Origin: Sphagnum compactum
Lineage: Eukaryota
DNA: 64,000 nt
Direction of reading: 5' to 3'
Assembly: GCA_965153455.1 (NCBI GenBank)
Contig: OZ234493.1
Location: 8,608,213 to 8,672,212 of the forward strand
A program made the position numbers and the translations under genes. This document shows, one piece after another, positions 3,001 through 62,269 of the stretch (position 1 is its first letter; the number at the start of each line of letters is the position of its first letter). The notes beneath the pieces were generated by a model. That model was not told where the DNA came from. It saw only the letters and a program-made list of their open reading frames with translations, and made no database searches.

Positions 3001-3571
3001 GCTTACATGTCAGTATGCTTCCCAATCAGAGTAAAAAGAAGGACGACATAAGTTTTGGTAATGTTTCCCCAAAGTAACAAATGACATGTAAAAATGAGAA
3101 ACAGGTTACGTGTCTTCAGATATGAACCTTGAGTCTCTCACTCTCCTTTAGGACGACTTGGAATTACAAACCCAACTTCAGTTTCCTGCAAATACGTATT
3201 GGTTTGGTTCACCACCAGAAGATGCTCTTCGAAGTATTTCACCTAACCAGCTATGTATTTTTGTGTTTCAGACAGCTCAATTTTGAGCAAATAAATAGAA
3301 AGGAGATGATTCTGTATGTGCCAAAAGAGAGGATGAGTGTCTGATACCCACAGTTCCTACAGACCAGAAATAGACCTTATACCAACCAACACAGGTTACT
3401 GTGCAGGACATCCCCGATCCTTGCCTCAAGGCTCTGACACAGTTTCTAAGGACTATTGAGAACTAATACATTGCATTTATATGGTAACTTTCAAGAATTA
3501 AGCAATTATGTAGACATGGTTTGCCAAAGGACTCAAACCTGGTTTATACAGTTCTTCTGATCACATATCAC

Positions 3572-6500
3572 TCAAGAAAAGCAGAGTCTTTCATTAACAA
3601 ATCTTCCCTTGAGCCTGCAAGTGTTCCACTCCAGGACTATGGTATCCTTGTGGCATTGACCAAAGTAGTGGTGGTTAGCTCTGGTGCTTGGTGAGCAGAA
3701 CAATGATGGCTGATGGCAGCGAGCAATTTGCACTACTCTCAGTGCTGAATATCTTGTGTTCTGGATACAATCCAGGAAAGAAAGGTCAAAAAGGAACCTA
3801 GTTGCCTAAGAAACAGATATTAAATACCTGAAAATAGCTTTGTAAGTACTGACAATTTCTCCACACTCAAGCCAACCTGAAAATAATTGAGAGATGACTG
3901 GATAATAAGGTTATGATAAATCAGATTTGACCACACCAACCAATCAGCAAGCATAAAAAAGGAAACCCAACCCCAAATAAAGGAGAAAACAAGACCAAAA
4001 ACAAAGCTGAGGAGCAGTTTGAATGACAGCAACCGTCATATGCATGTTCAGGAATCTTCAACAGCAACATATAGAATTGAGCACCTAACATAACATCCCC
4101 ACTCAATTCATCAGCTCCCAGCAATAGGTGGATGTTAAATGTCAAACATTAATTAACTAACATACTGAGTCGAAGTCTCAAGAGTCAAAGTAAAGGGTTA
4201 GCAACCTGACAAATCAAAACCATCACAACTAATAATAGAATTGCAGTCATATAATGGGATAACTGTGGCCTCTTGTCCAATACAGCATACTAAAAGGCAG
4301 GTTAATTCAAAATGCAAACAACACCAATCACCCACTCTTGAAGAAAATAAGTATAGAAAACTTACTGTAGGTTTATTGAAGAGTTTTTCCACGCTATCAC
4401 ATGTGTCCAAAGCAAGCTTTTGCAACAAAGGTAGCTGCCAGCAATAAAGACAATCTTCTGTTAGCAGCTGAAATTCAAATCCAATTTCAAAGTTGCAAGA
4501 AAAAGGAAGGAAGAGGGGCCTATGTAAACTCACATGCATGGATGAATCCTGTATGAAACTGGCAGGCAGTCCCTTACCCTGAACACAGAGAGCAACATAC
4601 ACAGTGACTGCCTTGATAATGACTTACTGACTTGCAAGCACATACCTTTTAAAACCCAGGCACATTATCAAGGCAATTGCAGAGGCCTTTCATTTCAAGA
4701 ACAGGACATTGGATGTTTCAGTCAGACTGGTGTCAGGGACCTTATCACTGGTTCATGACTTGATAAGTCAAGTTTGCATTTTTGAGAATCTAAGATCAAC
4801 AAAAACTTAGATCAACAAAAACTTGGATCAAATATTGAGTTTTGGCATTATGTTTCCTGTTCAAGAAGTGGTGACCCTAGATGAATCATCAGTTACCAAT
4901 GACAAGGTGGAAACAACAGTCCTGCATAGATACAGGGAGAAAGTGGGAAATTACAGTGTGGCGCAAGTGGAGCACTTGCAGGGCCTGACACCCAAGTAGC
5001 AGACATGAAGCTCCATCCATTGTTATCTGGTAGCAGTCCTGCATGTATGTGGAATTTACTAAGTATTTATGAACATGAAAAAAGTATCAAGGTGGTCCAG
5101 GAGACCTTCCCAAGTAAGAAATCCATCAAATTTGCCACTAGCAAATGTTTAGATTTGAGTTTCCTATTTACCAACTCCAGAGGTGCATCAGGTCTAGGAT
5201 TGGGATATCATGCACAACACAACTCTTGCCAAAGATGAGATAAAAACACAAAACACAGACGAATGGAACCAAAAATTCCTTGACATATGTGTTTTTGTGT
5301 TATTGCCTCTTGCTGAAAACTATTGCTCAACAGAGAACATGAGCATTATAGAGATACCTCTAACTTGAGCTCATACAGGCCATGCCACTTGCTTGCAATA
5401 ATCCTCAGAGAATCTGTCATGCAACCTCCTCATCAGATAAGCTTGTCAATTGTGACTTGATAAAACACTCAAACCAGGGAACAGCAATATAGATGGATGT
5501 GACTAGACATTAGTGTGGCAGGAGGTTACTGACAATGTCACACTATGGCAAAGAATATCCTATAAGAGTATGTGGTGGCTAGAGCTAGTTTAAAGAAATA
5601 ATGTGACTAGGTCAGAGCAGAGTGCACAAACAGAACTGTGAACCTCACAGATCAAAAGGCTACTTTATTTTGCTGGGCTATCAAATACATCTGCTGGATT
5701 GGTATTTATCCCGTGAGAAGATTTGAAAACCGGCAAAATTACAAAAGATGTGTCTTTCAACAAGAACAGGATGGCAGACATTTAAGAGGAAAACAGGACA
5801 AGGCCAGAAAACTGGGAGGTCTACAAGAAGTCACTCCAAAACATGTCCAACACCTGAATTGACCTAAAGTTGGCATCTACATTCAGGATTACATTCAATA
5901 CGTCAACTATTTACATAGAATGAGCAATATGAAACCCGCATGAGATGATATTGACATTTCACTCACCACTGGTCAGGCATTGACATCCTACAAAAGAGAG
6001 ATGACAAAGGCCTGGGCAAGTACTGCTCAAAAGCAATACATCACTATCCTCCATCCAAGGTGTAACTCTCTCCAGTCTGAGGCATGTTAGATTGAGACCA
6101 CACCCTCCTTTAAACATCCTAATGCTCTCACGAGAGATCTGTCCAAGACAGTGCCGGAGCTCCAGTGTATGTAAGCCCTTTAGCTCTTGGAGCATACTCA
6201 TCATTCCTTCATCAGATATTACCTGCCAACACACCCAGAAAATTTGAGATATCAGGCATCCAAGTAAGCCATGGTTGAAACTAAGAAGAATGTTTTCCAC
6301 AATAACCCATGCTATATTGTTTTTGCTGCTCGGAACCTTGGGTGAACTTGATATCCAACACCTGCTTTAGCCACAGCACTTGGTGGTCCAAAGAGACAAC
6401 TTGACATTTTCTTTCGCATCAACAGTTGAAATCCTTCATAAGTTAACCAGGGAGTCAGTGCCTGGATAGGTAGGTACTTCCTCATACTTCACTTCGTTCA

Positions 6501-9500
6501 TTGATGTCAACAAACTGGAAACAAGTCTAAGGAAGAGTAGTCATATTTGTCACAGTTCTCATACAGTTTTACAATGTCTTCATGAACTTGAACCCAACTG
6601 CTGCCAGCTGCTCTTGAGGTACTGCTTTGCAGTTTGAAGTTGTCATTCTAGCATGGGACAGGAGTGAAGATCATGAAAACCACACTTGGACTGTAGAGAA
6701 AAAATGAGCCACCATTTGATATGCAACAACGAGCAGGAATTGATAGAGGACAAATCAAGGACTTTGTGTACAATGACCAAACCCAGATGAGGAATCTCTT
6801 GGGAGCACCACATTTCACAGCACCAGCAATGAATGTTCTTACATCCGAACCTGGAAGCAAAGAGAAATGTGCTTGAAAGTTGAGCTTATATGAGACAGGC
6901 TTCTCAATGTGGTGTTGCTTACTGTACCCCCAACTCCTACAGTAAGGCTCTGAAGCCTACAACTTCCAAGGCCCATGGATTTAAAGGATGAGTCTGACAA
7001 ACCCCAGCCCATTATCACCTCCTCCAACTGAAAACTTTTTCCATCACATTGAAGCTCTAAGTTGTTTGTAGCCATTTGAGTGCAACCTCTTGTATTGAGA
7101 ACCTTCAACCTTGAGTTCTTTGCCATGATGTGTGTGACAGCCCTCCTTGACACCTGTTAGGTACAGAGCAATCATGAGTATCCTCAAGGCGGATGGAGGT
7201 GTTCTTTGGGCTGAAGGAAAGCAATAATAATGAATTCCAAATGTTGTGGAAAGTGTCTTGTCAATCATCTCTAAAGGGACCAACAGCAGCTCTTTCAAAA
7301 CAACAAGATTCATTCTCAATAACACAGAAACACCCTGCATTGCAAGCATTGGAGAATACATCTATGAGACCGTAGAGAAAACTCCACAACAACACTTTAA
7401 AGATAACACAACAGTGAGTGTGTTGGAGAATAACAGTTTCTCACTCCTTTACCATGGAAACCATATCAACTAGTGGAGTATAGATATATGCCCTTTACTG
7501 AACCAAAAAGGGATCATACAAGAATGTTTTGCTTGTGAATTCCAAAGTTAAGAGTACCCAGCCACCTGTGTTTCTCTGAGATTGAGATGCAGTAGATCTG
7601 TTCCAGAAAATGCAAATAAAGCAGTGTCACTGACACAGGTGTAGGCCATGGACAAATAAGCAAGGAAAGGCTGGTATTTTAACAACTGAATTAGATGTTT
7701 CTCCTCCAAGCCTGCACAGAAAAATTCATAAAGTATTAGGAGTCACTCTTCTAGCTCATTGCACTTCTCTAATCCCTGTGGTCTAAAAGTACAGTTTCCA
7801 ACCAGCTGCTGCATAACAAAGGGAGCAGTCTCACATCCTCTTCTTTCAGAAAAGCAAAATGGACAATTAGAAAACACTTCCATGTTGAGCAGCTGATACA
7901 GTTATACAGGATTACATGATGCCCACTATAAAGTCTACCATAATGACCCTGCTGCTCATGAATTTCTCTTCCAATTGCATGGGATGGTTGTACACAACCA
8001 TCCAGTAAACAAAAAATCAAAGCTTCAAGACATCCTGTATGTAGGAACATAACGAGTGAAGGGAGCAGAATGAGAATATTCCTTTTCAGTATAGAAAACA
8101 GAGTTATACATCAAGTTGCAGGAACACCAGCGCACATCAGTAAACCCAGCAGCAAATTTCCTTCTTTAAATTTCTCTATAGGTGCAAAACACAACTGTGG
8201 AGAATATACCAAAGCATTTGTCCAGGTCCAAAGTTTGAAGGGCATGGTTCTTGGAGATGCTGGCTACATCCACAGGGACAGCATGCAGAAGAGCTCTGGA
8301 GGAAGCGGGCCCAAAGGAAGTGCCTGCAGCCCGGAAATCCTGGAACAATTTTCAAAATAGAGCAGAGCCACACAGACCCTCAGAAAGTGGTATGACCAAA
8401 CCTCAAAGCTGCACAGTGCCAGAAACAGTGCTTGAACATTACATCATGGACTAACAATCCCAACTGCAAACCACCTTTCTTAAGTCTAGATTTGAGAAGA
8501 GCAAAGATGATAATCCACTCCAAGGGTATGACTTAATGTTGAGAACAATAACACACCGACATATACAGCTGACATACCTTAAAACAGTTAGGGTAAAGGT
8601 TCAGGAAAGTTGCAATGCCTGAATCAGTCAGTTGTGAACAGCCACTAATGTCCACTGCCTGAAGGGCTGGACATTTATGCCCAAGAGAGTTGAACATTGC
8701 ATCTGATTGCACCATAACAAACATGCCCTCAGGTAACAAGCAGCTTCAAGGTTAGAAGAAACAGGGCAAGTGCTTATCAGGATGTGTGGCCCTACAAGTG
8801 AAAACAATTATCCAGACATCCAGAATGATGCAATAATCTTGATCGCCTCACCTCATAGAGAATGGGAACCAAAAAGAGATGCACAATCAATGCCATTTCA
8901 TGTATGTTCCACCATATTCCTTGGTAGATTGTGAGAGAGAACATCTCGAGAGGAAAGAACTCACCAGACAACTCTGAGCGCCCACGTAGAGAAAGCTCCT
9001 TTAAATTTTGAAGTCCATCTGACTTGTTATACGACCCATGAGTCACCGGATATACCACTAGAACTTGAGACTTCTGCACTGTTACTGCCCCCTCCATCTC
9101 CACAATCTCTTCAGTGACAGATAAGTCCAAAACTTCCAAAAGTGGACAACAAGCTGATAAGCTTATGTATATTGAGATGGCTAGCTGTGGGCAATCCTGA
9201 AGTCTCAGAATCAACAGTTTTGGGCAGGCTGCTGCAAGCCATTCACATAAATCTTCTTCTTGTATTCGCCAGCACTGAGATAAGGTGAAAGTTTTCAAAT
9301 TTTCAAAGCAAGGAATGTCAGGCCACAGTGGCTTATGAGGAAACAAAGGATTTGACATTCGACTGGGCTTGGAGAGCTCCAGATTGCACACTGCTGATGA
9401 CCAAAATAAGAGTGGACCTGTTACCTGTTGGCAACCAGATAGATCCACTTCCTGCACACAAATTACCATAAAAATCAGAATACAATTTCTCAGCATAGAC

Positions 9501-20180: not shown

Positions 20181-20215
20181 TAGGGTAGGGTAGGGTAGGG
20201 TAGGGTAGGGTAGGG
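20181..20215 (+). repeat. (TAGGG)7 pentanucleotide microsatellite, G-quadruplex-capable
   Basis: Seven perfect TAGGG units read directly. Confidence 0.95.
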
Positions 20216-25012: not shown

Positions 25013-26145
25013 AAGGGACGTAATGACCTCAAGACCTTGCAAAATGATTAGGACTGATTAATAAAGCATACATGAAAATGGAAGCTATTAATGTTCAACA
25101 AGAAACACTACAAGAATTTTTGGTTTTTCAAACAATCCAAGTTGACTAATTGGTCTTTCTTAATTAGTGAACATGTACATTTTGACTAGAGGTTAGGGGC
25201 ATGAATGACCTGTATCTTTTGACCAATCAACATGGTTGATATGACCTATTTGATTATTTGTTAACTTGGACATCTAGTCAAATTGGACCAAAAATTGACA
25301 AACTTGGTCAAAATGGCCAATGACACTTAGTCAAATGGAATATCTAGTGAAGTTGGAAAGAAACACATAACATTTTTAGTCAAAATGGCCAATGAAATTT
25401 TAGTCAAATAAAACATTTAATCAAGATGGCTAATGTTATTACTACATACCTACCTCCCTACATAGTATACCCACGCATTGACCTATTACAACATACTTAC
25501 CCACCTACCTACCCACCTACCTACCTATCTACCTACCAACCTATTATAACCTACTTACCTACCCACGTACTTATTAACTATTACCCACCTATTTACCTAT
25601 CTACCCACCCATTCACCCACATACTAATTACCTACTACAACCTACTTAACCACCCACCCACCCACCTACTAATGTACCTCATAGTCTTGTAGTAATGTGT
25701 CGAAATAAACATGAATTAAAAAATTAACAAAAGTTGAACACCTTTTGATGGTGTGGTCCATTTGTTAAGGACTTGGTTTATCATTGGGGAGGTAAAGGAT
25801 TCAATTCCTAATAGTTGTAGCATATGTACATGTTCAAGGGGCTGAGGTAGGTAGGCTAGGTTAAATTAATTAGGTTAAGTTAAGTTAAGTGAAGTAGGTA
25901 GGGTAGGGTACCACCTACCTACTTGCATTTTTATGACCTACCTACCTATTTGCTTACAAAAAAATATTTTTGATATTTTTTTTTAATTTTTAAAAATAAT
26001 TTGACTAGTCGAATGGTCCATTATTCACTAGTCAAAATGACTAATTAAGTGGTCTTTATTTTTCTAGTGAAAAAAACCACCCCAATCACATTAAACATGT
26101 TAAAATTGAATTGTCCAAAATGACAAGGGGTCTTTTTGGCCCCTG
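25013..26145. mobile_element. Non-autonomous TIR element nested in the LTR element; same family as the element at about 58036
   Basis: Weak inverted ends (AAGGGACGTAATGACC / reverse complement CAGGGGCCAAAAAGACC), many TTGACTAG/CTAGTCAA subterminal motifs, and an ACCT-rich tract at 25440-25680. Bases 25700-26145 are the reverse-complement homolog of 58036-58520. Confidence 0.65.
25747..25815 (+). other. tRNA-derived (SINE-head-like) A-box/B-box sequence, degenerate
   Basis: GATGGTG TGGTCCATTTGTTAAGGAC ... GGAGGT AAAGGATTCAATTCCT has a D-stem GTCC/GGAC and a T-arm AGGA-TTCAAT-TCCT at tRNA-like spacing. There is no proper acceptor stem. Confidence 0.55.
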
Positions 26146-26877
26146 TACTAAAATTTCCAATTTGAAAAACCAAAAATTCTAGTAGTGAAAAAACTTTCGC
26201 TACTTTGGAACAAACTTGCCAACAACAACAAGAGCAGTTGATGATTATGAACATGGAGTTAGAAAATTGCACTCATGAACTACGAATTCAAATTCAAAAT
26301 CTAAAAGATGAAATGGAGGCAATGTAAATATCACCCAATAAGAATTCTCAAACCTTATATATGGACAACAAATTGAAATTTGAACAATTGTTATTGGATA
26401 ATGCTTTATTCAAAGTTCAAAACCAAGCATTAATGGACATGAATTCGAAGGGGAAGGAATGGTGGAAGACTATGCAAAAAATTGCAAAAGAGATGATTTA
26501 AGATAACCTAGAGATTGGGTGTGCCAATGAAGAAGCATACCTATCCGAATTGGTAACTTATAAAGTACAATTTCCAGAGTATAGGTATGACCAATAAAAT
26601 TCAAAACTATTTGAGATTAAAAGAGGTGTCGGAGTATCCCAAATAACTACCTTTGTGGAACTAGTACCAACATCTATAGGTATTCATAGTGAACTAATTG
26701 TTACTATTATTGAAGTGCCAACACAAATGCGAGGCGGATGATTTTGCTATTGTACCCTACTTTGCCTATGATGCCAATAATATTTGTTGATTCATTCGCC
26801 ATAGTTGTAAACATCCAAGTAGGAGGTTTGCAGATACTTGTTACTCTTAGGATTGTACCATTATTAATAGCTCATAT

Positions 26878-30332: not shown

Positions 30333-33322
30333 CACTAAAAGAAATCTTATAATATCTAACCATTCTTTTTGCAACTACATGCAACTATGTGTTGGTTGTG
30401 AATATATTTGATTTTTTTAGCAACTAATTATCAATAATCACACTTTATATGGTGAAATGTCATTATGTTACGACTACCATGTGACTATTGACATATTCAT
30501 CTTTTCATTTGGACGACTTTTGATATTGTTTTCATCCAAAAATAGGTTCATATGTTCCATTATGCATTTATGACCAAAATTAATCGCAACCATATGCCAT
30601 ATACATAGCCCTTTCCTGTACATTAGAGTGTATTACAATTAAATTTGGGGTACATTTCTACAATGTACTAGGGTTCCATTAAGGTATATTTTAAAAGTTT
30701 ATTAGGAATACATATTAATTATGGGTAGATTAATTACATATTGTGAACATATTAAAGGTTTTATCAACATGGTTTTTGTGGTGAATTTTTACCATTTGGA
30801 AATATATATATATAAACTTTGTTTTCATTTTGATATTCTCAACACCCTTCTCACCTGTTTTTTGTCCTTGACACAACAAATCTATTGTGACACCCTTGTT
30901 CCATGACAAAACAAATACAATGATTACAATGTGAGATGCAATGGCATATGCCATTCATACCCATTACACCCATTTTTTAAAAACTTCAATTTGAATTTCA
31001 AACAAGTTATATGAACTTGAAATCAATTCATATTTCTATTTTGAAAATTGTTATTTTGAAACGGAAAACTTATACTTGAATTTTGAATATTTTTATTTGA
31101 ATATAAATGTTCATATCTCAATTCTGAAATTTATTATTTCAATCTAAAAAACTGGTTTTCAATTATGTAAATTATTATATGAATTTGATTATCTTTTAAT
31201 CTAAATTTTGTTATTTAAATTATGAAAATAAATCTTTGAGTTCAAAAACTGTTATTGGAATCTACAAATTGTTTTTTGCATTCTATAAATTAATATTTGA
31301 ATCTTAAAAATGATATTTGGATCTGAAATAACTATTTCTATTCTGAAAATTGATATTCCAGTTCTAGAACTTGAAATTTTAAATACGAAAATTTCATTTT
31401 CATTTTAGAACTATTAATTGAATCTGAAAATTGATATTTGAATTCTGAAAATTGTTGTTTCAAATCTGAAAAATACTCCATATCTCCATTTTTCAATAAA
31501 ATCAAATAATTTTTTTTAGAATGGAAATATCAAGTTTCAAATTCAAAAAAAACTTTTCGAATTCAAATGCAAAATTTTTAAATTAAAATAATAATTTCTA
31601 AAATCAAATAACAATGTTTGAATTCAACTGAAAATTCTCAGAATTGATATATCAATTTTCAGAATCAAATAATGAGTTTTAAAATTCAAATAATATTTTG
31701 AAAGCTCAAATATCAATTTCTAGATTCAAATAATAATTCTTAACATTCAAATTACAAATTTTGAATTCAAGCAATAATTTTCAGATTTTAGATATGAATT
31801 TTCATAATCAAATAACAGTTTTTGGAATTGAAATATCACTTTTCAATTGCAACTAACAATTTTCAGAATAAAAGTATCAAATTTCATAATCAAATAACAA
31901 TTTTCAGGATTTAAATATCAATTTTCAGATTCAAATAAACATTTTCGGAAATCAAATATCAATTTTGAGATTGAAATATCAATTTTTGAATACCAAAAAG
32001 AAAATAATTCAAAATTGAATTTCTGAATTCAAATAATAAATTTTAGATTTGAAATACCATTTTTGAGATTTTAATAAGAATTTTTAGAAGTGAAATATCA
32101 ATTTTCATAATCAATTAACAATTTTTCAATTGAAATATCACTTTTTAGTTGCAAATAACAATTTTCATAATTCAAATAAAATTTTTCAGCATTGAATTAT
32201 TAATTTCCAGATTCAAATAATTTTTTTCAGAAATCAGATATTAAGTTTCAGATTGAAATAACAATTTTCAGAGTTGAAATATCAATTTTAGAATGAAATT
32301 TGTGAAATTTCGTATTGAAGTTACAATTTTGAGAATTGATAAATTAATTTTCAGAACTTAAATGTCAAATTTCATCTTCAAACAATTATTCTTAGAGTTT
32401 AAATATCACTTTTTAATATTAAAATAAAAATTGATACTTCAAATAATTGTTATGTGGAAAGGTCATGTGAGGTGGGAGGATTAACATATATATAATTGAC
32501 ACATGAAAAAAAGGAACAAAAGATAGGGAATAATTTTTTTAGTCACAAATTAATATGCGACTAAATTGTGACTAGAAATTTATCCAATATTTTTTGTTCT
32601 CCATTTCAATCTTGTAAACTATATCATAAGATGCATTTGGAAGATTGAGAACACGCATTCAGGATGAGCCTATGAAAAGGCTTAACCATAAAGGCTAAAC
32701 CTAAAATAAAATTAAAAAATCTATCTAACTACCTACTTACCTAATCCCTACCTACCTAAATATTTAATTTAATATATTTTGATAAAATGTTAATTAATAT
32801 GTCATGTGGCAAATTGTTATTATGCCACATGTCACAATCTATAACCATCCAAAATGGATGATGCGGATTTAATTTATTTTGTCAGTTTAAGTTTTTTCAA
32901 AATTCAATTATCATGCCACATGGCTAAAATCAATTGGATCATGTGGATCAATTTAAGACCATCAAATATGGACAATTGAAATTATAAATTTCCTAGAAAA
33001 AATGATTTATGTATTATTTCATTTCAATTTTTCAAAATGCACTACTTGTGCCATGTCACAACAAAAGGTTGGTGACCATTTTAATTGCAATTTTGAATAA
33101 ATAGTCACAAGTTGCATATGTATAATAAACAGATGAAGACACATTTGTTGACCATATGTTTCATTCATGGCATGTGATGATATAAGGAATGATACCATCA
33201 TTTGCAATTGTATGTTGGATGCTACTTTACTTATGCAACTAATGATTTTTAGTTGTATAGGTGGGGTACAATTAATTTATAGTCGCAAAGTTTAGTTGAA
33301 AATTTATACTTTTCTTCTAATA
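30333..33322. mobile_element. Non-autonomous CACTA element carrying an inverted tandem array
   Basis: Left CACTAAAAGAAA; right reverse complement TATTAGAAGAAA. A 3-bp TSD GAA lies on both sides (30330-30332, 33323-33325). Bases 32520-32860 resemble 28750-29160 of the neighbouring CACTA element. Confidence 0.8.
30985..32450. repeat. Degenerate AT-rich tandem array (unit about 20-22 bp) in two opposite orientations
   Basis: Left block repeats TTCTGAAAATTG(A/T)TATTTGAA. From about 31500 the right block repeats its reverse complement TTCAAATA(T/A)CAATTTTCAGAA. Confidence 0.8.
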
Positions 33323-34051
33323 GAACCCAAGAAGGAGAAACCAAATTGCCTCCCTCAAGTTTCACTCCCAATAGAGATAGCTCAATCAAAGATGATATTA
33401 TTGCAATAAACATTGGTGGGCACATGTTTGGCCTATCACACCCTAAGGAAATGAGCTTGAATAAAAGGAATACATAGAGAAATGTATTGTGTTTATGAAA
33501 TATGTACAAAGTGTGATTATTCATGATAATTTTATTCCCATGATTTCGATGCTATAATAGTTTTTCCCACTGAGTTTTTGCTTTGACAAAAGTCTTGTGT
33601 AAATAAGGTATACTTCCACACTATTAGGAAATGCGTCCTAGTTCATTATGGGTTTCACTAGATTTTTGAGTGAATTTGGACAATTTTACTAGGTGAAATT
33701 GTTTAACCCCCTAATGAACGGGGACCAGTTGCTACGGACAATGACTTGTTTCACTAATAACTAATGAAATAAGGTTATTCTCAAGTGAAATACAAATTTA
33801 CCAAACCATTCACTTGCTAGTTAATTAACTAACCAGTATGGAAATTAATTAAATTTTAATTATTTAGTATATAATACTATTGATAATTTCATGATTTTTA
33901 AAGCCTATTATTTATTGACACGTGTCACTACTTATGCTAGGTTAAAAACCTAGCCTAAGTAGGTAGGTAGGCCACGTAATCAACCTAGGCACCTAACCTA
34001 GGAATTCGATAGGAGAATATTCGATCAACATACCATGTTGACCGCACACAA

Positions 34052-34123
34052 CACCACCCATGAGGTTTGATCCCCTGACCTTTGGAATGGGGGCAAACAC
34101 CTTTACCATCAAACCACCCCACT
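34052..34123 (-). other. tRNA-derived A-box/B-box-like sequence, degenerate
   Basis: Reverse complement GTGGGG TGGTTTGATGGTAAAGG TGTTTGCCCCCATTCCAAAGGT CAGGGGATCAAACCTCA gives A-box TGGTTTGATGG and B-box-like GGATCAAACC at tRNA spacing. Confidence 0.45.
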
Positions 34124-34227
34124 TGTTGTGATAATATGTTACATTACATTTTATTTATCAAATACTTCATTTTGAACATTACAAAAATATAAACTTTGAA
34201 AATTGGCAATCCTAAGCAATTATAATA

Positions 34228-35420
34228 AATGGCTATTGGTTGTTTTTTTATTAGTGCTATTGGTGGTTATTAATGGCTATTGGTACCTATTCTATTTGTG
34301 GCTATTAATGTTTTTTAGTGGTTATTCTATTAATAGTTATTGGTGGTTATTTTAATAATGGCCATTAGTAGTTATTCTATTGGTGGCTATTCTATTAATG
34401 GCTACTGGTGGCTATTCTATTAATAGCTATTTGTGATTAATGTATTAATGGCTATTGGTGGTTATTCTATTAATGGCTATTGGTGGCTATTTTATTAATG
34501 GTTATTCGTGATTAATTTATTGATGGATATTTGTGCCTACTCTATTAATGGTTATTGGTGGCTAATATATTAATGGCTATTTATGATTAATCTATTAATG
34601 GCTATTGGTGGCTAATATATTAATGGCTATTGGTGGCTATTCTATTAATGGCTACTGGTGGTTATTCTATTAATGGTTATTGGTGGCCATTCTATTAATA
34701 GCTATTTGTGATTAATGTATTAATGTATATTATGAGTAATGTATTAATGGCTATTGTGGTTATTTTATTAATGGCTATTCGTGATTAATCTATTAATGTA
34801 TATTATGATTAATGTATTAATGGCTATTGTGGTTATTTTATTAATGGCTATTCGTGATTAATCTATTAATGGCTATTGGTGGTTATTTTATTAATGGTTA
34901 TTCATGATTAATCTATTAATGGATATTGATGGCTATTCTATTAATGGCTATTGGTTGCTAATCTATTAATGGTTATTTGTGATTAATCTATTAATGACTA
35001 TTTGTGATTAATCTATTAATGGCTATTTGTGATTAATCTATTAATGGCTATTTGTGATTAATCTATTAATGGCTATTGGTGGCTATTCTATTAATTGCTA
35101 TTGGTGGCTATTCTATTAATGGTTTTTCGTGATTAATCTATTAATGGCTATTGGTGGATATTATATTAATGGTTATTGGTGGTTATTCTATTAATGGCTA
35201 TTGGTGGATATTATATTAATGGTTATTGGTGGTTATTCTATTAATGGCTATTGGTGGCTATTCTATTAATGGCTATTGTGGCTATTCTATTAATGGCTAT
35301 TGGTGGCTATTCTATTAATGGCTATTGGTGGCTATTCTATTAATGGCTATTAGTGGCTATTTTATTAATGGCTATTGGTGGTTATTTTATTGGTGGTTAT
35401 TGATGGCTATTTTATTATGG
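34228..35420 (+). repeat. 25-bp minisatellite array (about 45 units)
   Basis: Units GGCTATTGGTGGCTATTCTATTAAT and variant GGCTATTTGTGATTAATCTATTAAT, interspersed. Confidence 0.95.
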
Positions 35421-38400
35421 TTATTGTATTATAAGTTATTGTTGGTTATTATATGTTATATTACAACTATTGGTGATTATTGTATTATAAATTATTGTTT
35501 GATATTTTACGTTATAATATCATAGGCTATTGGTAGTTATTAAATTGTAGGGTATTTAAAATTATTTTTAATAGGTTATTATTTTCTATTTTAAGTTATT
35601 TTTACCTTAGGCCATTATATTATGTTTTAGATTATTTTTAAGTTATTATGCTTAGGATAAAATCATTTATAATAACATTAAGTAGAATGACCTTGAATAA
35701 TTTAAAGTATAACTTGAAATAACATACATTAATTTAAAATAAATAACCTGAGGTATAGCCTAAAGTTAGTTGAATAATTTAATTTTAAATAATTTAAAAG
35801 CTTATAATAAACTAGTTAAGATACTTTAAGGTAAAATAACATATAATAATTTAGGGTACAATAATTTATAATAGCCTATAATAACATAAAATATAAGTTA
35901 AAATAACTAAAGTAGCTTAAAATAATATAGGGTATATCATAAAGTAACATAGATAGAATATTTTTAAAAACATAGAAATAAACCTATTTGCTATAGTAAA
36001 TTGTAATAGTGAATTATGTTAACTAGAAATGAAGCATGATGTCTACATAGTGATATTATACTGAAATAACTTTCACTATGTGAAATCAGTAAAATGCAAT
36101 GAAGTTATTTCACTGTTAAGGTCCCATAGTGATTTAAGCTAGTAAACTACACCCCACTTTGGTAGTAGTGCCACTTCTAGTAAATATATAAAATTGAGCC
36201 TTTACAAGTATTCAAGGTAAAGTTCATGGAATCGGTTTCTTAATGAAATTTCATTTATTGATAGTAATTGGGATAGGTAACGTAGATTGTTGTATTGAAA
36301 TCAAGCAGTGACCCAATTCTAGAATCCTAATTGAAATGGTGATAGATGTTTACACATTAAGCTTTAAAGATCGGTTGCCATTTGATACTTAATTCATAAT
36401 GTATACAATGTTCCTAGATTTTGGAGATATGGGAATTAGGCGGCTGTCCATTATTACAAAATGTGGGTGTCGTTCACATTTACTAGATTAGTGAATTCAC
36501 TCAAAATCTAGTGCAATTATTTTGCATATAGGGACACCATTTGTTGTAGTGGCCTGATTTTCAAATTTTATAATTCATGAAATATTTTCAGCTTGTAGAT
36601 TTATTGGGATTGGGTGGTTGCTTGATTCTATATCCTTCACATGTCATTATTTTTATGTTGCTTAACATTAATTGTTGTGAACTTGATTCGATGTTTTATA
36701 AATAAAATTTTAAAGAGGTTGCAATTTTTGTATTTATTATCTCAAATTTTGGATGGGCATTGAGATTGGTTTGCCTAATAAAATTAGTTTAGATTTATTG
36801 AAGTTGTGGTTAATGTGGTTGAAAATTGGGGCAAAGAAAACAATCTCATTCGTACAAATGCAGAATAAATAGTTATGGTTGTTTATTCTACATTTATATG
36901 GATGAAATTGTTTTCTTTGCTTTTCGAGGCCTTTACTTTAAAATTTGTGCTCAAGTAAAATTCTAGATGGTGAAACATAGAACGAGGGTCCTCTTGAAGA
37001 GGCAAAGTTTGTTGGTTTAGGGGAGGGAATGCGAAAGTGCAGCCCCAAGGTGTGAGCTGAAATGGAATCTCTTGACGAAGATGTTCATGATCGGCCTTGC
37101 AGAAACTCTAATGATATTATGAAAGTTATGAAACTAAATGTGATTATGAAAGATTGTTTGGAACTAAGGATGGTTGGGGATAAATAAGATTGATTATGAA
37201 AATTATGGAAATCCTAGGAACCCTTTTGTAGAAGAGTTGTTCTTGCCAACAAAGGGCCAACACTTGCCTTTGATATGCGTGGTATCTAGGTTTCTATTGC
37301 CATAACCTTGTTCAATGTCTGAAGTTGCTAATGTTGTGAAAAGTGAGAAATTCTCAAATAATATCTCATAATTTAAGCTACTCTGTGAAGACAATAAGGG
37401 TTGAAAGGATCCAAAAATGGGTATTTTGCTAAATTTCAAATGTGTTCAAACAATAGTCAAGCTTGAGGTGAGTCCACAAATTGAAATTTTCTTGGTTACT
37501 ATAAAGGGTGTTATTATAGGAATTGATTCTTTTTATGTGTTATATGCCAACACTACACGATATAGAATTTTTTATTTTGTTAGAAGTAAGATCGGTTACA
37601 TGTTTCCACATGTTATTCAATAATCTCCAATTATATACATGACGAACATATACCAAAGAATGTTATATTCCGTAGGGTTATGGAAGATGTGGATTCTTTA
37701 GCAAGATTGTAGTATATGGATGAAGAAGTTAGATTGCCTTCATCTTCAAGTCCTTTACTTGGTTCGTAATGTCTTGAGGTGAGTTGTTTTAATAGTATAC
37801 TTGACTTAAATGGAATTCTCGTGGTGCAAGCTTTGAGACAATTCAAAAAATAGAATGTTACCCAAAATTCTGTAATTGGTGACCTAACAAGTTATTGGAC
37901 ATAACATGTGACAAAATTTAATCGAACATTTGTTGGTGTTGCTCAAGCCTCAACAAATTCCAAATGTGGTGTGAAAACAATTGATTTGAAGGTTTCCAAT
38001 CAATGTGACGAAGTTGCTTTGACTTGTTGATAAGTTGGATCCATTCCGTTTCCAAATTAATGCGTACCAAATCCATGTTCGGGCTTGGTTGTGGTTTTTC
38101 TAAACCAACAAAGATTGCTAATTGGTGTAGGTACACCTATTATAGGTATGAAATACATAGGAGTTGTTGAACGCCATTGTTGTTGTATGGAGACACCCTC
38201 ATCAAATTGTTGAATAGGTTCATGATTGCCACCATTGTGAACATTCACTACCTATGGTTGGGTTGATGTTTGTGGTGTCACTTGGTGAGTGGTTGAGGTA
38301 CTTGTGGTTTCCTTTTGCATAATTGGTTTGGCTACAACTTGATGTTGTTCATTGGCTTCTAATCTATGTGTTGCATCTATATTTGCTGCATTCATCGGTT

Positions 38401-56570: not shown

Positions 56571-58419
56571 TTTACCCCATTTGACAAGTCCCTATTTTTC
56601 TTTTTGTGACCTCTATTCGAGTGTTCGTGTGTTTGTGCTTTTGGTTGTTATTTCTTGGTTTGATGTTGGTCCTCTCTTGTTGTTCCTCCATTTTGCCCTC
56701 CAAATGGGTGTTTCTTTCTTTTATTAAATTTGGTAAAGCTTCATAAAAAAAAGAACTTATTGTGGTTTTCTTTCATTTGAACTATTAAAAGTTGAAACAC
56801 ATGGTGTTTATGTTAAAAAATCATGCAAAATTCATTCATAAATTTGTACATTTCACGCATTGATAGTGTGCATTGAAAAACACATTTGGCACACAGATTT
56901 ATAAGAAGATGCAAAATTCATGTGACATTTGTTCATTCATAAGTTTATACTTTATTCGTCAACACATTTATCCATGTGTCAAATGTGTTTTCTATGCATG
57001 GTATTCGTGTGTAAAATGTATGAACTCATGAATGAATGAACTTCTCATGATTTTCATTATTAATTCATTGCATGCTAAATTTGTGGAATATCTGATGTTG
57101 GTGGTATTTTTATGGGACGGTGAATGCAGTTCGGCTTCAAGGGCTCAATTTTTGGCACTTTCATGTCAGGTAGTGCGGAGGCTTCATGATACATGTCACG
57201 TTCCCATCCCTCTTTTGCCATTACCATCCCATGATGATTGAATGTCATTTTTTCAATATGTTAAAACTTGTTTTGGATTGACATTAATAAACATATATTT
57301 TCTATCTTGCAAAAATTCACTACCTAAAAGCTTGTGGACATGCCCACCTATAACCTCTCAGAAACAATGCATAACATATGGCTTTAGCAATTGGGGAAAA
57401 GGGGAGTTTTAGTTATATGCTACACCTTCTAATGACTATGACGAACTTTCAAGCAATCAACATTATATTACCAGTTAAAAGAAGGTGGCCCATTAGGGCA
57501 AGGACTTAATAGGAGTGAGCCTCTACTATGTAAAACATCCCAATATGGCGATTGTAAACAAAATTTTGAATAATCTTTAGGCTTATATTTCACAACTATA
57601 ATTGCACACTTAGAAGGGGAGGAGACCTTTGGTTCTTACAAGCAGAACCAAATTTACCTCCACGATCATATGGGAATTCAAATTGGCATGATCGTGTCAA
57701 TTCCTTTTGCCTAATGTTGACACCTAAATTAAAAAAATTAAATGTGCATACAGAACGGCCTAATCAGTATGAACATGTGGATATCACCAATGAAGGTGTT
57801 GAAGTCCTAGAAGCTCCATGCGAAGATGGAATGTGGCATATAGAACGATATCCCCCTACCTCGCATGTCTAATGTTTAACATTGCAGAAAACCAACTAGC
57901 ATTATTGTACCACAAGGATAATTGCCAAGTCTAATTCCATTAGTTTTCCTGCCCTTATTTATTTTGGTCTGTCCTCATTATTCCAATTCATGGTTTTTTC
58001 GATTAGGTTTTCTAGTCAAAAAATACCAAAAAGTGACAGGTGTAAAAAAAAACCACTGTCAATCTGGACAAGTCGTTTTGTACATGTCCAGCGCGACTGG
58101 GCAATCAAATTGGACCTTATCATTTTGACTGGTGGAGTGATTGATTATTTGACTTACTATTTGACTAGTGGATAATGAACCATTTGACTATGTCAATTTT
58201 ATACTTAAATTAAAATCATTTTTGGAACTATTATTTTAAAAATTAATAAGTAGGTAGGTAAATGGGTAAGTAGGTAATAAATTGATTTAAGTAGGTCGAT
58301 AAAACACTTAGGCAGGTAGGTGTTAGCCTAGCTTAGCTTAACCTAGCTTAATTTCCAACTTAACTTAACTACCTTAGTTTAACCTATGTACCCTGACCTT
58401 CTCAACATGCACATAGGTT

Positions 58420-58490
58420 GTAAGTATAAAAAATTGAACCCCAAACCTTCCCAATGGTAAACCAAGTCCTTACCAATGGACTACATCATC
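58420..58490 (-). other. tRNA-derived A-box/B-box sequence, degenerate
   Basis: Reverse complement GATGATG TAGTCCATTGGTAAGGAC TTGGTTTACCATTGG GAAGGT TTGGGGTTCAATTTT gives A-box TAGTCCATTGG, D-stem GTCC/GGAC and B-box GGTTCAATT. Confidence 0.6.
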
Positions 58491-58546
58491 AAAGATGCTC
58501 AACTTTTATCAAGTTTTTTATTTCACATGTTCATTATCATTAAACA

Positions 58547-60075
58547 TAATGGCTGAACCCTAAGAGACAACTAGTGGCTAAATTTAGTGATTTAAAGTAA
58601 TGGTTAAACCTAGGTGACAACTAATGGCTAAATTTAATGATTTAAAGTAATGGCTTAACCCAATGATTTAAAGTAATAGTTAAACCTGATGGCTAAATTC
58701 AATGACTTAAAGTAATAGTTAAACCTAATGGCTAAACTCAGTGACTTAAATTATTGGTTAACCTAGTAGCTAAATTCAATGACTTAAAGTAATAACTAAA
58801 CCTAACGGTTAAACTCAGTGACTTAAATTATTGGTTAATCCTAATGGCGAAATTCAATGACTTAAAATAATAACCAAACCTAGTGGCTAAACACAATGAT
58901 TTAAAATAATGGTTGAACTTAGTGGCTAAACTCAGTGATTTAAAGTAATGGTTAAACCAAATGGCTAAACATAATGATTTAAAATAATGCTAAACCTAAT
59001 GGTTAAACTCAGTGACTTAAAGTAATGGCTAAACCTAATGGCTAAACCCAATGGTTTAAAGTAATGGCTAAACATGCTGGCTAAACTTAGTGACTTAAAA
59101 TAATGGTTAAACCTATTGGTTAAATTCAGTGTTTTAAAATAATGGTTAAACCTAGTGGTTGAATTCAACGACTTAAATTAGTGGTTACACTTAGTGATTA
59201 AATTCAGTGATTTAAAGAAATGGCTAAACCTATTGGCTAAACTCAGTGATTTAAAATAATGGTTAAACCTAGTGGCTAAATTCAATAATTCAAAGTAATG
59301 GTTAAACCTACAGGCTAAACCCAGTGACTTAAAGTAATGGTTAAACCTAGTGGTTTAAAGTAATGGCTAAACTTAATGGCTAAATTCGATATTTTAAACT
59401 ATTGGTTCAACATAATGGCTTAAAGTAATGGCTAAATTTAGTGGTTAAATTCAGTGATTTAAACTATTGGTTAAACTTAGTGGCTAAATTTAATGATTTA
59501 AACTAATGGTTAATCCTAATGATTAACTCAATGACTTAAAATAATGGTTAAACCCAATGGTTAAATTTAATGGCTTAAAGTAATGGCTAAACTTAGTGCT
59601 TAAATTTAGTGATTTAAAGTAATAACTAAATTTAGTGTCTAAAGTCAATGACTTGAAATAATGGCTAAATTTAGTGGTTAAACTTAGTAGCTTAAAGTAG
59701 TGGTTAAATTTAGTGATTTCAAATAATGGCTAAACTTAATGGCCAAATTTAATGACTTAAAATAATGGCTAAACCTATTGTATAAACTTAATGACTTAAT
59801 GTAATGGTTAAATCGAGCGGCTAAATTTAATGACTTAAAGTAATGACTAAACATAATGGTTGAATTTAGTGGCTAAATTTAGTGATTTTAGGTAATGGCT
59901 AAACCTAGTGGCTAAATTTAATGACTTAAAATAATGGTTAAATTTAATAGCTAAACTTAGTGACTTAAAGTAATGGCTAAGTTTAGTGGCTAAATTTTAG
60001 TGAATTAAAGTGATGGTTAAACCTTGATTAAACCAAGTGATTAAACCTAATGGCTAAATATAGTGAATGAACTTG
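58547..60075 (+). repeat. 39-bp tandem array built from three 13-bp subunits
   Basis: Consensus GGCTAAACTCAGT-GACTTAAAGTAAT-GGTTAAACCTAGT, about 39 units, with occasional loss of 13-bp subunits. Confidence 0.93.
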
Positions 60076-62269
60076 GTTGATAAACTTAATGGTCTTCTTT
60101 TTCTCAACCCCAACCAAGGACAATAGAATATTGTTCTTATGATCGAAACATTCCATCAATGTAAATGAAATAAGATTCCCATGTGGTTTGTATATTTTGT
60201 ATACTTGGCAAAAATAATTTGTCCATGTGGTAAGAATATTTTGTCTACATAACAAGAATATTTTAAGAAGATTTTATCATGCTCACAATAGTCAAGCTCA
60301 CTGCTCACGTTCACATGCTCATAACTCACGTTCATGCATTCACTTGGTAACTACATTGTTTAAGTAAGTAGGTTACATAGGTTACATAAGTCAAATTAGG
60401 TAGGTTAAGCTACTACCTACCTACCTACCTTTTTCGGCTTACTTAGACCTACCTACATATCTATTTATTTTTTATTTTTATAATAATCCGAAAAAACAAT
60501 TTTAATCTGGGTGTAAATTCGAGTAATCAAATGGTGAGTTGTTTACCAATCATATTATAGTAATTCATTATATGACACCTTAACATTACATATGACTTGT
60601 CCTTTATGACTATAAATATAATGACTATATACATTTTATGACTAATCATATCACATCGAATATTTAATGACTTTTTGTCCTTTGTTGTTTGTTAGTTACA
60701 ACGAAAGGCTTTTAGTCATATAATGTCCGGTATGACTCCAAAATTAATCATATATGGAGTCATAGACAATAAAAATTTCTTTTAATGTGCTTAACCAAAA
60801 TAATAATTTACATCTAAAGGCCAAATTGTAGCCTTGGAAATGTTGAAAAAAACAAGAAAAAACATGTGTTTGATAAATTAAGATTCATTTGGATTACAAT
60901 GTCAAATGAAAAGAAATTGTAATCACATTTACTTTATTATTCGTGATTCATGATCACATACATACATTATTGAAAAGGTAAGTGCAAATTTGCACCAAAA
61001 AAAAAATGTTCCATTGCCATGTCATGTGCAGTCACTACAAATGTAAAAAGAAGTAACATAATTGAATCTTCAAATGAACTATAAAGCGTAAAAAAAACAC
61101 ATGAATATTTAAATGCATTATGTAGTGTAAAAAATACAATGGGAATGTTTGTGGTCATTGAAGTTAGCCTCTTCAAGTTCATATTCATGGTCATCCAACA
61201 ATTCCTCTTCAACTTTGAAAAACTCCTCCATTCCTTCAACAACAAGAGAGTAGCCAATCCTTACATTGTTCAACTAGTTCTTCAAAATCATCATGAACGT
61301 GTCCAAGTTCTACATTTGGGTTATTAAGCTTGTATGGGTTCCCACATTCTTTTAATGGATGTGGGAAGCATTGTCTTCCTTTCATTTCCCTTTCTATTCA
61401 CCATCACCACCTTCTTTTGCCACCCTCCTTTGCTTTTTGTACCAAACCAAAACAACCTTTTGTTCATTCATAACTTGTTTTTTTCATAATAGTGATGCCA
61501 TGTGTAGGGTTGTAAGAAAGCAGACCTTTCTTAGATCACATAATGTTATTATTACTTGAAGATTGACTTGTGGGGTGACACATGACACACTTCATCACCT
61601 AAACAACTTGAATGTGGATTATTGCAGATGGAGAATTGAACAAGAAGAATGCCCAAGCAAGGGAGGTTTGATGATGTAAGAGCTAAGACTTTTAGTTCTT
61701 TTGCAATTTGGCAAAATAACACCCCAAGATGTTTATTGACCATAATGCCTTCGATCACCAATTTTGCAATTGGTTGTTTCATCCATGATGCCAATGGGTT
61801 GTTACACCAATTCACTAGTAATGCTAATAACTGTAAGCTTTTCAGCCTCCTCATGATTTGTTTCACAAGTAAATGAAAAATAAGATTGTGTAAATGTCAT
61901 TGTAGAAGTTATAAAACCAACTGAGAAAGATGATGAAACATGAAACCCTGAATCCTTCTAACATTCAACACTTTGTGTTGTCTTGTCTTTTTTCACCCTC
62001 ACACATTGCGACTATTGTTTGATTTGACTACATTTCAACTACATTTGGGCATCTTAAGTTTGCAAGTGGCTTGTTGCACTAATTAATGGTCAATATTATT
62101 CATAATTGTTACGTTCACCATGTTGTTCACTTATGAATATAATTTGGATTTTATTTAATTATTTAGTAATTTCAAATTGTTGATGTGGAAATTGAGGTAA
62201 CCTTTAACTTTATTTACACAATGCATTATAATGGGTAAGTGATTTTTTTGACATTTTTAAAATTTTCAA

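What the first reader, a model, noticed from the sequence alone, without database searches (positions are those of the whole stretch)
58420..60075. Recurring 'tandem array + tRNA-like Pol III head + TAGG tract' module in non-autonomous DNA transposons
Seen in sequence: three elements (25013-26145, 33619-36551, 58036-60787) each hold a degenerate tRNA-like sequence (25747-25815 +, 34052-34123 -, 58420-58490 -). In each case a tandem array lies about 60-110 bp 5' of it and a TAGG/CCTA-rich tract lies 3' of it. The array differs: ACCT/CCAC tract, 25-bp unit, or 39-bp unit. The GTCC/GGAC D-stem is intact in two diverged copies despite heavy decay nearby. Established: A/B boxes recruit TFIIIC/Pol III and can act as chromatin barriers or fork-pausing sites. 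Inference: these TIR elements carry a captured tRNA/SINE head that may drive transcription, insulate the element, or create a local hotspot for satellite expansion. I do not know a description of this architecture.
Basis: partly seen in the sequence, partly recalled or inferred. Interest (0 to 1): 0.72.

Follow-up and report, generated by a model that had tools for sequence, protein, structure and literature searches.

The report
tRNA promoter relic in moss transposons
Many small cut-and-paste jumping genes of this moss carry, a few hundred bases inside one end, a worn-out piece of a transfer-RNA gene that has kept mainly its two promoter boxes, which may help the elements spread, although no activity has been shown.

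Summary
The three tRNA-like sequences are real. All three elements are non-autonomous CACTA transposons of a moss genome, each in a family of hundreds of copies. The sequence is a decayed tRNA-gene relic: A and B boxes 43-44 nt apart, with anticodon and acceptor stems lost. In 15 family or subfamily representatives it points outward; where an end was found, it lies about 400-620 bp inside it. It occurs with three unrelated types of CACTA end, so it has been shuffled between families. No free SINE-like copy was found. A/T box positions vary about 1.6-3.7-fold less than matched neighbours in six copy sets, a modest sign of selection; C/G box positions decay normally. The array link is not supported: elements 1 and 3 are sister families, element 2's array lies 178-253 bp away, several families have none, and most TAGG tracts (31 of 38) have no head. 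No transcript was seen. The best reading is a captured TFIIIC docking site kept by selection on the element (about 50%), against a passive passenger (35%). The scan noted similar modules in DNA transposons of other genomes (unchecked notes).

The parts
57976..60065 (-). Element 3, family A non-autonomous CACTA: 3' terminus at 57976, subterminal repeats, TAGG tract, head, AT-rich spacer, 13/39-bp satellite. The usual other arm is missing.
   Evidence: Family consensus ends in TAGTAGTG at this place; full-length relatives; no ORF of 150 aa or more inside.
58420..58490 (-). tRNA-derived head of element 3. A box 58473-58483 canonical; B box 58430-58440 damaged (C61 and C62 read T).
   Evidence: (26.6 bits).
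58547..60065 (.). 13/26/39-bp satellite array, a family-A trait, 57-81 bp upstream of the head
   Evidence: TRF; an array within 300 bp in 30 of 30 family-A loci.
58250..58410 (-). TAGG/CCTA-rich tract downstream of the head
60360..60787 (+). Headless 3' arm (TAGG tract, subterminal repeats, decayed CACTA end) of a sister subfamily, opposite orientation; flanks do not form a TSD with 57976
   Evidence: 74-76% identity over about 430 bp to the region downstream of the head in L259, L231 and L262.
25106..26187 (+). Element 1, family C non-autonomous CACTA, complete, TSD AAA/AAA
25747..25815 (+). Head of element 1. A box 25754-25764 (G18 reads T) and B box 25798-25808 (G53 reads A) are both damaged in this copy.
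   Evidence: (16.7 bits).
25448..25670 (+). CCTA/CCCA microsatellite-like tract, the left-arm mirror of the TAGG tract at about 25845-25950
33619..36551 (-). Element 2, family B non-autonomous CACTA (young, copies 96-98% alike); CACTA/TAGTG ends, flanks CCA/GCC do not match as a TSD in this copy
34052..34123 (-). Head of element 2. A box 34106-34116 non-canonical (G at position 14); B box 34063-34073 of the A54 type seen in initiator tRNA-Met.
   Evidence: (14.9 bits).
34302..35426 (.). 25-bp satellite array of family B, 178-253 bp upstream of the head

Best explanation
The elements are non-autonomous CACTA (En/Spm) transposons, moved in trans by the genome's own CACTA transposases. One or a few times an ancestor captured a piece of a nuclear tRNA gene with its flanks. 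The resulting module is an AT-rich spacer, an A box, a B box 43-44 nt on, and a TAGG tract. It was inherited by daughter families and exchanged between families with different ends. It no longer encodes a tRNA. It most likely persisted as a DNA site: A and B boxes in a CpG-free form that TFIIIC can bind, pointing outward 400-620 bp inside one end, which made copies that kept it slightly better at being copied, probably by keeping that end accessible or less silenced. Shown: CACTA identity, tRNA-type boxes, position, orientation, shuffling and modest box conservation. Inferred: capture route, TFIIIC binding and benefit to the element. The arrays are ordinary internal CACTA repeats, not caused by the head. 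After insertion each copy decays, and two of the three window copies have damaged boxes.
For: CACTA ends and 3-bp TSDs: 7 of 9 family-C loci with both ends called, of 30 examined; 9 of 37 metagenome loci with both ends called, many left ends mis-called. 153 Transposase_21 matches in the genome, many without stops. A-B spacing 43-44 nt in 15 of 15 representatives; distant families are only 51-69% alike over the head. D and T stems pair above slid controls (77% vs 35-52%; 69% vs 37-67%), anticodon and acceptor stems do not (53% vs 35-60%; 57% vs 40-62%). Head 396-620 bp from a TAGTG end in 11 of 12 representatives tabulated, the 12th cut off by the locus edge, with three types of subterminal repeat. 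Module and end similarities are discordant: B/F196 end score 22, module 98; F196/L242 end 95, module 17; L242/D113 end 19, module 59. In 37 family-A copies chosen by the terminus, not the head, A/T box columns show 4 changes against 14.8 expected from context-matched neighbours (P 0.001). The direction is the same in five other sets: 3/7.8, 3/7.0, 8/13.6, 3/8.0, 7/11.2.
Against: C/G box positions, which include G18, G19, G53, C56 and C61, decay as fast as neighbours (0.166 vs 0.164). Only 11 of 37 terminus-selected copies keep both boxes. The transversion-only test shows no effect in 2 of 5 sets (ratios 0.94 and 0.84). The sets are not independent, and the box columns are few (6-12). Diverged families were found with box-weighted profiles, so conserved boxes and spacing between families are partly built into the search. 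The family-B A box is non-canonical in 30 of 30 copies, yet B is the youngest family. Many CACTA ends have no head: 14 further ends scanned, none convincing. No transcript start or pile-up at the family-B head. No binding data exist.
Confidence: 0.5

Rival explanations
1. Passive passenger. A tRNA-gene fragment was captured once, as Pack-CACTA elements capture host DNA, and rode along without function. Boxes look conserved because they are what the searches detect, and the low A/T variation is small-number noise or local mutation bias.
For: No excess conservation at C/G box sites. Within families the flanks are as conserved as the head: A vs C 93% upstream and 87% head; B vs F196 73% upstream, 69% head, 75% downstream. 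Most copies have lost a box. Headless CACTA families are common. Host-fragment capture by CACTA in this genome is noted in e1-7226117 (unchecked).
Against: Lower A/T variation at boxes defined in advance, in head-independent sets and in the same direction six times. Both boxes are lower than all 81 other windows in the terminus-selected set. Same polarity and distance across three unrelated end types.
Confidence: 0.35
2. Nested SINEs. The heads are 5' ends of tRNA-derived SINEs that inserted into several CACTA families independently and were then amplified, as in the human MITE MER6.
For: Heads lean to different tRNAs: B and F196 to initiator Met, H195 shares 15 of 16 nt with the His anticodon arm, A and C score alike with His, Val, Lys and Glu. 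Precedent in PMC6887750.
Against: No free copy: upstream spacer homologous in 94 of 98 and downstream 55 nt in 92 of 99 copies found by the head motif alone, with one borderline on both sides. No internal TSD or A-rich tail seen. Random SINE insertion would not give one polarity and position. Isotype scores are too close to prove several origins.
Confidence: 0.08
3. Active Pol III transcription unit. The head makes a short outward RNA of about 170-190 nt, ending at the first T run in the TAGG tract, which acts on silencing or mobilisation.
For: Canonical boxes in the A and C consensus. AT-rich upstream spacer, and CAA within about 10 nt upstream in B, F196, E148, L265 and H195, as described for plant tRNA genes (PMC13578239). 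First T4 at a median 168-192 nt from T8.
Against:: 6 of 11.9 million poly(A) reads laid on the whole 791-bp family-B stretch, no place where many molecules begin or end, and RNA contigs spread evenly at low depth. This is a weak test, since poly(A) selection loses Pol III RNAs and the sample may be another species. No conserved fold.
Confidence: 0.05
4. One reading: the Pol III site stalls replication forks and seeds tandem arrays just upstream.
For: Arrays within 300 bp upstream in 30 of 30 A, 29 of 30 C and 27 of 30 B loci, against 320 of 2340 random positions.
Against: These counts are copies of three families, two of them sisters. 8 of 12 other copies lack a TRF array within 300 bp, though several have CCTA/TAGG-rich DNA there. 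Internal arrays near one end are known in CACTA elements without any Pol III site (PMC8978399).
Confidence: 0.02

Closest known systems
CACTA elements carrying 5S rDNA-like sequence (Triticeae; Wicker et al. 2003, seen only as cited in PMC5688495, passages read; the paper itself was not held)
   Same: CACTA superfamily element holding a fragment of a Pol III gene
   Different: There a 5S (type 1) sequence; here a tRNA-type A/B-box relic at a fixed polarity and distance, shared by families with unrelated ends
CACTA elements with internal satellite arrays near the 3' end (Jozin of Chenopodium, PMC8978399, passages read)
   Same: Tandem arrays inside CACTA elements, close to one end
   Different: No tRNA or SINE-derived part reported (0 occurrences of either word in the main text)
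MER6, a Mariner MITE that contains a nearly full-length SINE (PMC6887750; abstract and part 1 of the Discussion read)
   Same: Non-autonomous DNA transposon that amplified a tRNA-derived sequence
   Different: One insertion of a known free SINE into one family; here no free SINE is found and many families carry the module
Cassandra TRIMs with a 5S promoter (review PMC10946416, passages and section 11 read)
   Same: Non-autonomous plant element that keeps Pol III promoter boxes under selection
   Different: A retrotransposon needs its RNA, a DNA transposon does not; 5S rather than tRNA boxes
pearl / DTC84 / DINE-1-type elements (PMC3879986, passages read)
   Same: Modular build: internal tandem repeats plus a tetranucleotide microsatellite between inverted repeats
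   Different: [quoted passage not shown]

Membership tests
CACTA (En/Spm) non-autonomous element | Termini CACTA...TAGTG | tested here: met
   Elements 1 and 2 directly; element 3 by family consensus.
CACTA (En/Spm) non-autonomous element | 3-bp target site duplication | tested here: met
   Element 1 AAA/AAA; 7 of 9 family-C loci with both ends; L016 (family A) AGT/AGT; L164 (family B) AAT/AAT. Not matched in window elements 2 and 3.
CACTA (En/Spm) non-autonomous element | Subterminal repeats in both orientations | tested here: met
   Three motif types counted in the last 280 bp of 12 representatives; two decayed ones score 0-1.
CACTA (En/Spm) non-autonomous element | No transposase of its own; an autonomous partner with the same ends | tested here: inconclusive
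   No ORF of 150 aa or more in the elements; 153 Transposase_21 matches in the genome. The one TnpD locus read for 9 kb showed no head, no match to the families and no end.
tRNA gene | Cloverleaf with acceptor and anticodon stems | tested here: not met
   ARAGORN 0 and Rfam none; acceptor and anticodon pairing at slid-control level.
Type 2 Pol III promoter (tRNA type) | A and B boxes at tRNA spacing | tested here: met
   Families A and C: median 26 bits, spacing 43-44 nt (genome tRNAs 42-45). Family B weak, with a non-canonical A box.
Type 2 Pol III promoter (tRNA type) | TFIIIC binding or Pol III transcription | tested here: inconclusive
   Only a poly(A) run and RNA contigs, on family B: nothing specific to the head. 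Binding is not testable with these tools.
tRNA-derived SINE | tRNA-related 5' head | tested here: met
tRNA-derived SINE | Independent insertions with their own TSD and 3' tail | tested here: not met
   Flanks shared with the CACTA family in nearly all copies. Of 7 heads in a random 600 kb, 5 sit in CACTA ends, 1 is cut by the locus edge and 1 has no end identified.

The most novel reading that the evidence does not exclude
Moss non-autonomous CACTA elements have co-opted a tRNA-gene promoter as an exchangeable cis module. A CpG-free TFIIIC docking site near one end protects that end from silencing or keeps it open to transposase, and thousands of such sites spread through the genome could act as chromatin barriers. 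If the unchecked scan notes on other genomes hold, this is a recurrent strategy of DNA transposons, which have no need of an RNA intermediate.
Probability: 0.3. Interest if true: 0.75.

Novelty: new variant of a known kind. Interest (0 to 1): 0.47.

Why it matters
Pol III promoters are expected in SINEs and Cassandra elements because these need an RNA. A DNA transposon gains nothing from one unless the site acts on chromatin. A box pair kept at one polarity across many CACTA families offers a testable case of a transposon using TFIIIC against silencing, and a large natural set of candidate barrier sites in a plant, where such a role is mostly extrapolated from yeast and animals. If the module is a passenger, the result is an annotation note: these are CACTA internal sequences, not tRNA genes or SINEs.

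Tried and rejected
tRNA or Rfam match of single copies: none. Folding of the three heads: not better than shuffles. Pair counts on alignment A2 (67% paired, 0 of 500 shuffles) included three real tRNAs and were redone on heads alone; only the latter is used. Assigning the source tRNA failed: for A, His 60, Val 58, Lys 58 and Glu 57 against a shuffled mean of 37; for B, iMet 46 against mean 33 and maximum 45; for H195, Asn 64 despite a His-like arm. The reference set lacked several nuclear isotypes (the Rfam genome search scored 63 of about 26,500 candidates). Autonomous partner: 9 kb beside one TnpD gave nothing; tblastn of its ORFs hit three loci, none inside a head-bearing element that I could delimit. 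Hidden heads at 31 other TAGG tracts and 14 other CACTA ends: mean best score 10.8 vs 9.8 reversed, 4 vs 0 above 16 bits, none resembling the families. My automatic end caller missed most head-bearing ends (1 of 16 called ends had a head), so that ratio is not used as a frequency. RNA runs with a small share of words are not taken as evidence of expression. Papers PMC2836005, PMC5753468, PMC9659126 and bioRxiv 10.1101/2022.05.17.492078 (passages only) held nothing on this architecture.

Full report
Setting. The window lies on contig C1 of a 382-Mb genome with 702 contigs. Earlier scan notes call it a peat moss and run labels include moss metagenomes; I did not test the species.

Observation. 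The three sequences are present as described. None is called by ARAGORN or Rfam, and none folds better than shuffles. An A/B-box model trained only on the genome's tRNAs scores 30 family-A and 30 family-C copies at a median of 26 bits (real tRNAs 31). The reversed control over 664 kb has no site above 21 bits, against 8 in the real sequence. Family B scores 14.9, which noise reaches. In alignments to the genome's tRNAs with C-to-T and G-to-A decay allowed, A and C exceed all shuffles (58 vs maximum 49-50) and B barely does (46 vs 45). The source isotype cannot be assigned.

The elements. Searches of the genome with each head region gave 485, 546 and 445 candidates (lower bounds; 40 scored each, 30 loci cut each). 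The consensus of each family runs to a TAGTAGTG end. Element 1 is 25106-26187 with TSD AAA. Element 2 is 33619-36551 with unmatched flanks. Element 3 starts at 57976 and ends in the inverted, headless arm of a sister subfamily at 60360-60787. 3-bp TSDs match in 7 of 9 family-C loci where both ends were called. There is no ORF of 150 aa or more inside the elements, and the genome has 153 Transposase_21 matches. These are non-autonomous CACTA elements. Full-length family A reads: terminus, subterminal repeats, CCTA tract, 13/39-bp satellite, AT-rich spacer, head, TAGG tract, subterminal repeats, terminus. Family C is the same without the satellite, so elements 1 and 3 are one observation, not two (93% upstream, 87% head). 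Mean divergence from consensus in the head region is 7.7% in A, 5.7% in C and 1.1% in B.

How general. In 60 arbitrary 10-kb stretches (600 kb) a profile found 7 heads at 29 bits or more, with a reversed-control best of 9.2. The profile was trained partly on these hits. By arithmetic this is about 4,500 per genome (Poisson range roughly 1,800-9,200). Five of the 7 lie in CACTA ends, one is cut by the locus edge and one has no end that I could identify. A metagenome scan with a 27-nt head motif returned 120 loci, 100 after removing duplicates; their flanks gave 6 more heads of other families. Across 15 representatives the A-B distance is 43 or 44 nt. Where an end is found, the head points toward it from 396-620 bp away. 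Three unrelated subterminal repeat types carry it, and similarity of modules does not follow similarity of ends (B/F196: ends 22, module 98; F196/L242: ends 95, module 17), so modules or ends were exchanged between families. In a separate search by the family-A terminus alone, 19 of 40 hits were copies already known to carry the head; of the 21 new ones 19 had it (one half-deleted) and 2 showed satellite in the stretch fetched. No free copy appeared: the upstream spacer is homologous in 94 of 98 and the downstream 55 nt in 92 of 99. Many CACTA ends and 31 of 38 TAGG/CCTA tracts have no head, so neither the tract nor the head is required.

Is it under selection? Boxes were defined beforehand as 11 nt from T8 and 11 nt from G52. 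In 37 terminus-selected copies (the 2 headless and the half-deleted copy left out), A/T box columns carry 4 changes against 14.8 expected from neighbours matched for G/C context, after dropping columns with a variant in 15% or more of copies (P 0.001). The 18 new copies alone give 3 vs 7.8 (P 0.049), family C 3 vs 7.0 (P 0.08), and B box only in three metagenome groups 8 vs 13.6, 3 vs 8.0 and 7 vs 11.2 (P 0.08, 0.04, 0.13). Against this: transversions alone show no effect in two of five sets; C/G box columns decay like their neighbours; only 11 of 37 copies keep both boxes; the family-B A box lacks A14 in all 30 copies; and the sets overlap in ancestry. Across families the D and T stems keep some pairing while the anticodon and acceptor stems are at control level, which fits a DNA element reduced to its boxes rather than an RNA. 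The consensus heads contain no CpG. That this spares the boxes from CG methylation is my inference, and CpG loss is expected in any old repeat.

The arrays. Arrays lie within 300 bp upstream in 30 of 30 A, 29 of 30 C and 27 of 30 B loci, against 320 of 2340 random positions, but these are copies of three families. The 60-110 bp rule holds in 11, 19 and 1 of 30, and 8 of 12 further copies have no such array. Arrays near one end of CACTA elements are already described (PMC8978399, passages). I find no support for a causal link.

Expression. On the family-B end (window 33500-34290) 6 of 11.9 million poly(A) reads were laid, with no start or end pile-up; three RNA contig sets cover the stretch thinly and evenly, as DNA carry-over would. 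This is a weak negative.

Mechanism. Shown: a tRNA-derived box pair, fixed in polarity and distance, shared and shuffled among non-autonomous CACTA families, with modest conservation. Established: A and B boxes are read by TFIIIC (PMC13578239, section 20 read); barrier activity of TFIIIC sites is known from yeast (seen only as reference titles in that paper and in search listings). Inferred: the module was kept because TFIIIC binding near an end favoured copying (0.5). The main rival is passive carriage of a captured fragment (0.35).

Comparison. Known parts: CACTA with 5S-like inserts (cited in PMC5688495), CACTA with satellites (PMC8978399), a MITE with a SINE (PMC6887750), Cassandra with a 5S promoter (PMC10946416), and pearl-type modular elements without complete boxes (PMC3879986). 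Ten full-text searches found no description of a tRNA-box module in CACTA elements or in moss transposons. The library lacks most subscription journals, I read no supplements, and repeat databases could not be searched, so this is not proof of novelty. Scan notes describe tRNA-like modules just inside DNA transposon ends in other genomes; these are unchecked and are leads only. No note on this module turned up for this genome or sequence.

Verdict. A real feature and a new variant of a known kind. Interest 0.47.

Noticed in passing
L230 (as oriented: about 5166 and 5581): Two diverged heads in tandem, 415 bp apart, same orientation, each followed by a TAGG tract, inside a longer element with a third type of subterminal repeat.
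   Followed up: partly
L092 (G000:C11:9012309-9015471): A family-C right arm and a family-A element lie back to back, heads pointing away from each other, forming a composite with CACTA-type ends on both sides, much like window element 3.
   Followed up: partly
L206 (G000:C2:7682400-7682800): The only head among 19 genome matches of the pattern that still has a CpG in its B box; the other 18 are tRNA-Glu and tRNA-Gly genes.
   Followed up: partly
L172:589 (-), L158:8866 (+), L155:1523 (+), L144:9443 (+), L164:4341 (-): Other A/B-box-like sites scoring 20-28 bits outside the families studied; L172 lies in GC-richer DNA near a (GTCA)n run and could be a real SINE or tRNA pseudogene.
   Followed up: partly
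L195:1328 (-): Head sharing 15 of 16 nt with the tRNA-His anticodon arm, unique in the genome by exact pattern, with no TAGG tract and no clear CACTA end.
   Followed up: partly
window 26878, 30333, 39746 and about 32500-32900: Ends and TAGG/CCTA tracts of further non-autonomous CACTA families with no detectable head.
   Followed up: partly
window 31025-32413: Two adjacent AT-rich arrays of 20-21 bp units in opposite orientation, unrelated to the finding.
   Followed up: no
window 36828-36923: About 95-nt near-perfect hairpin (Rfam mir-590 model 35.6 bits, below its gathering score of 65).
   Followed up: no
window 20181-20215: Perfect (TAGGG)7 run.
   Followed up: no
L209 (G000:C14:7424100-7433100): An intact-looking TnpD region followed by more than 4 kb of what look by eye like host gene fragments, with no element end in 9 kb; possibly a large Pack-CACTA.
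   Followed up: no
L061 (G000:C563:28602-31673): 13 tRNA genes packed in about 2 kb on a small contig, one with a TCA anticodon; looks like a non-plant mitochondrial genome in the assembly.
   Followed up: no
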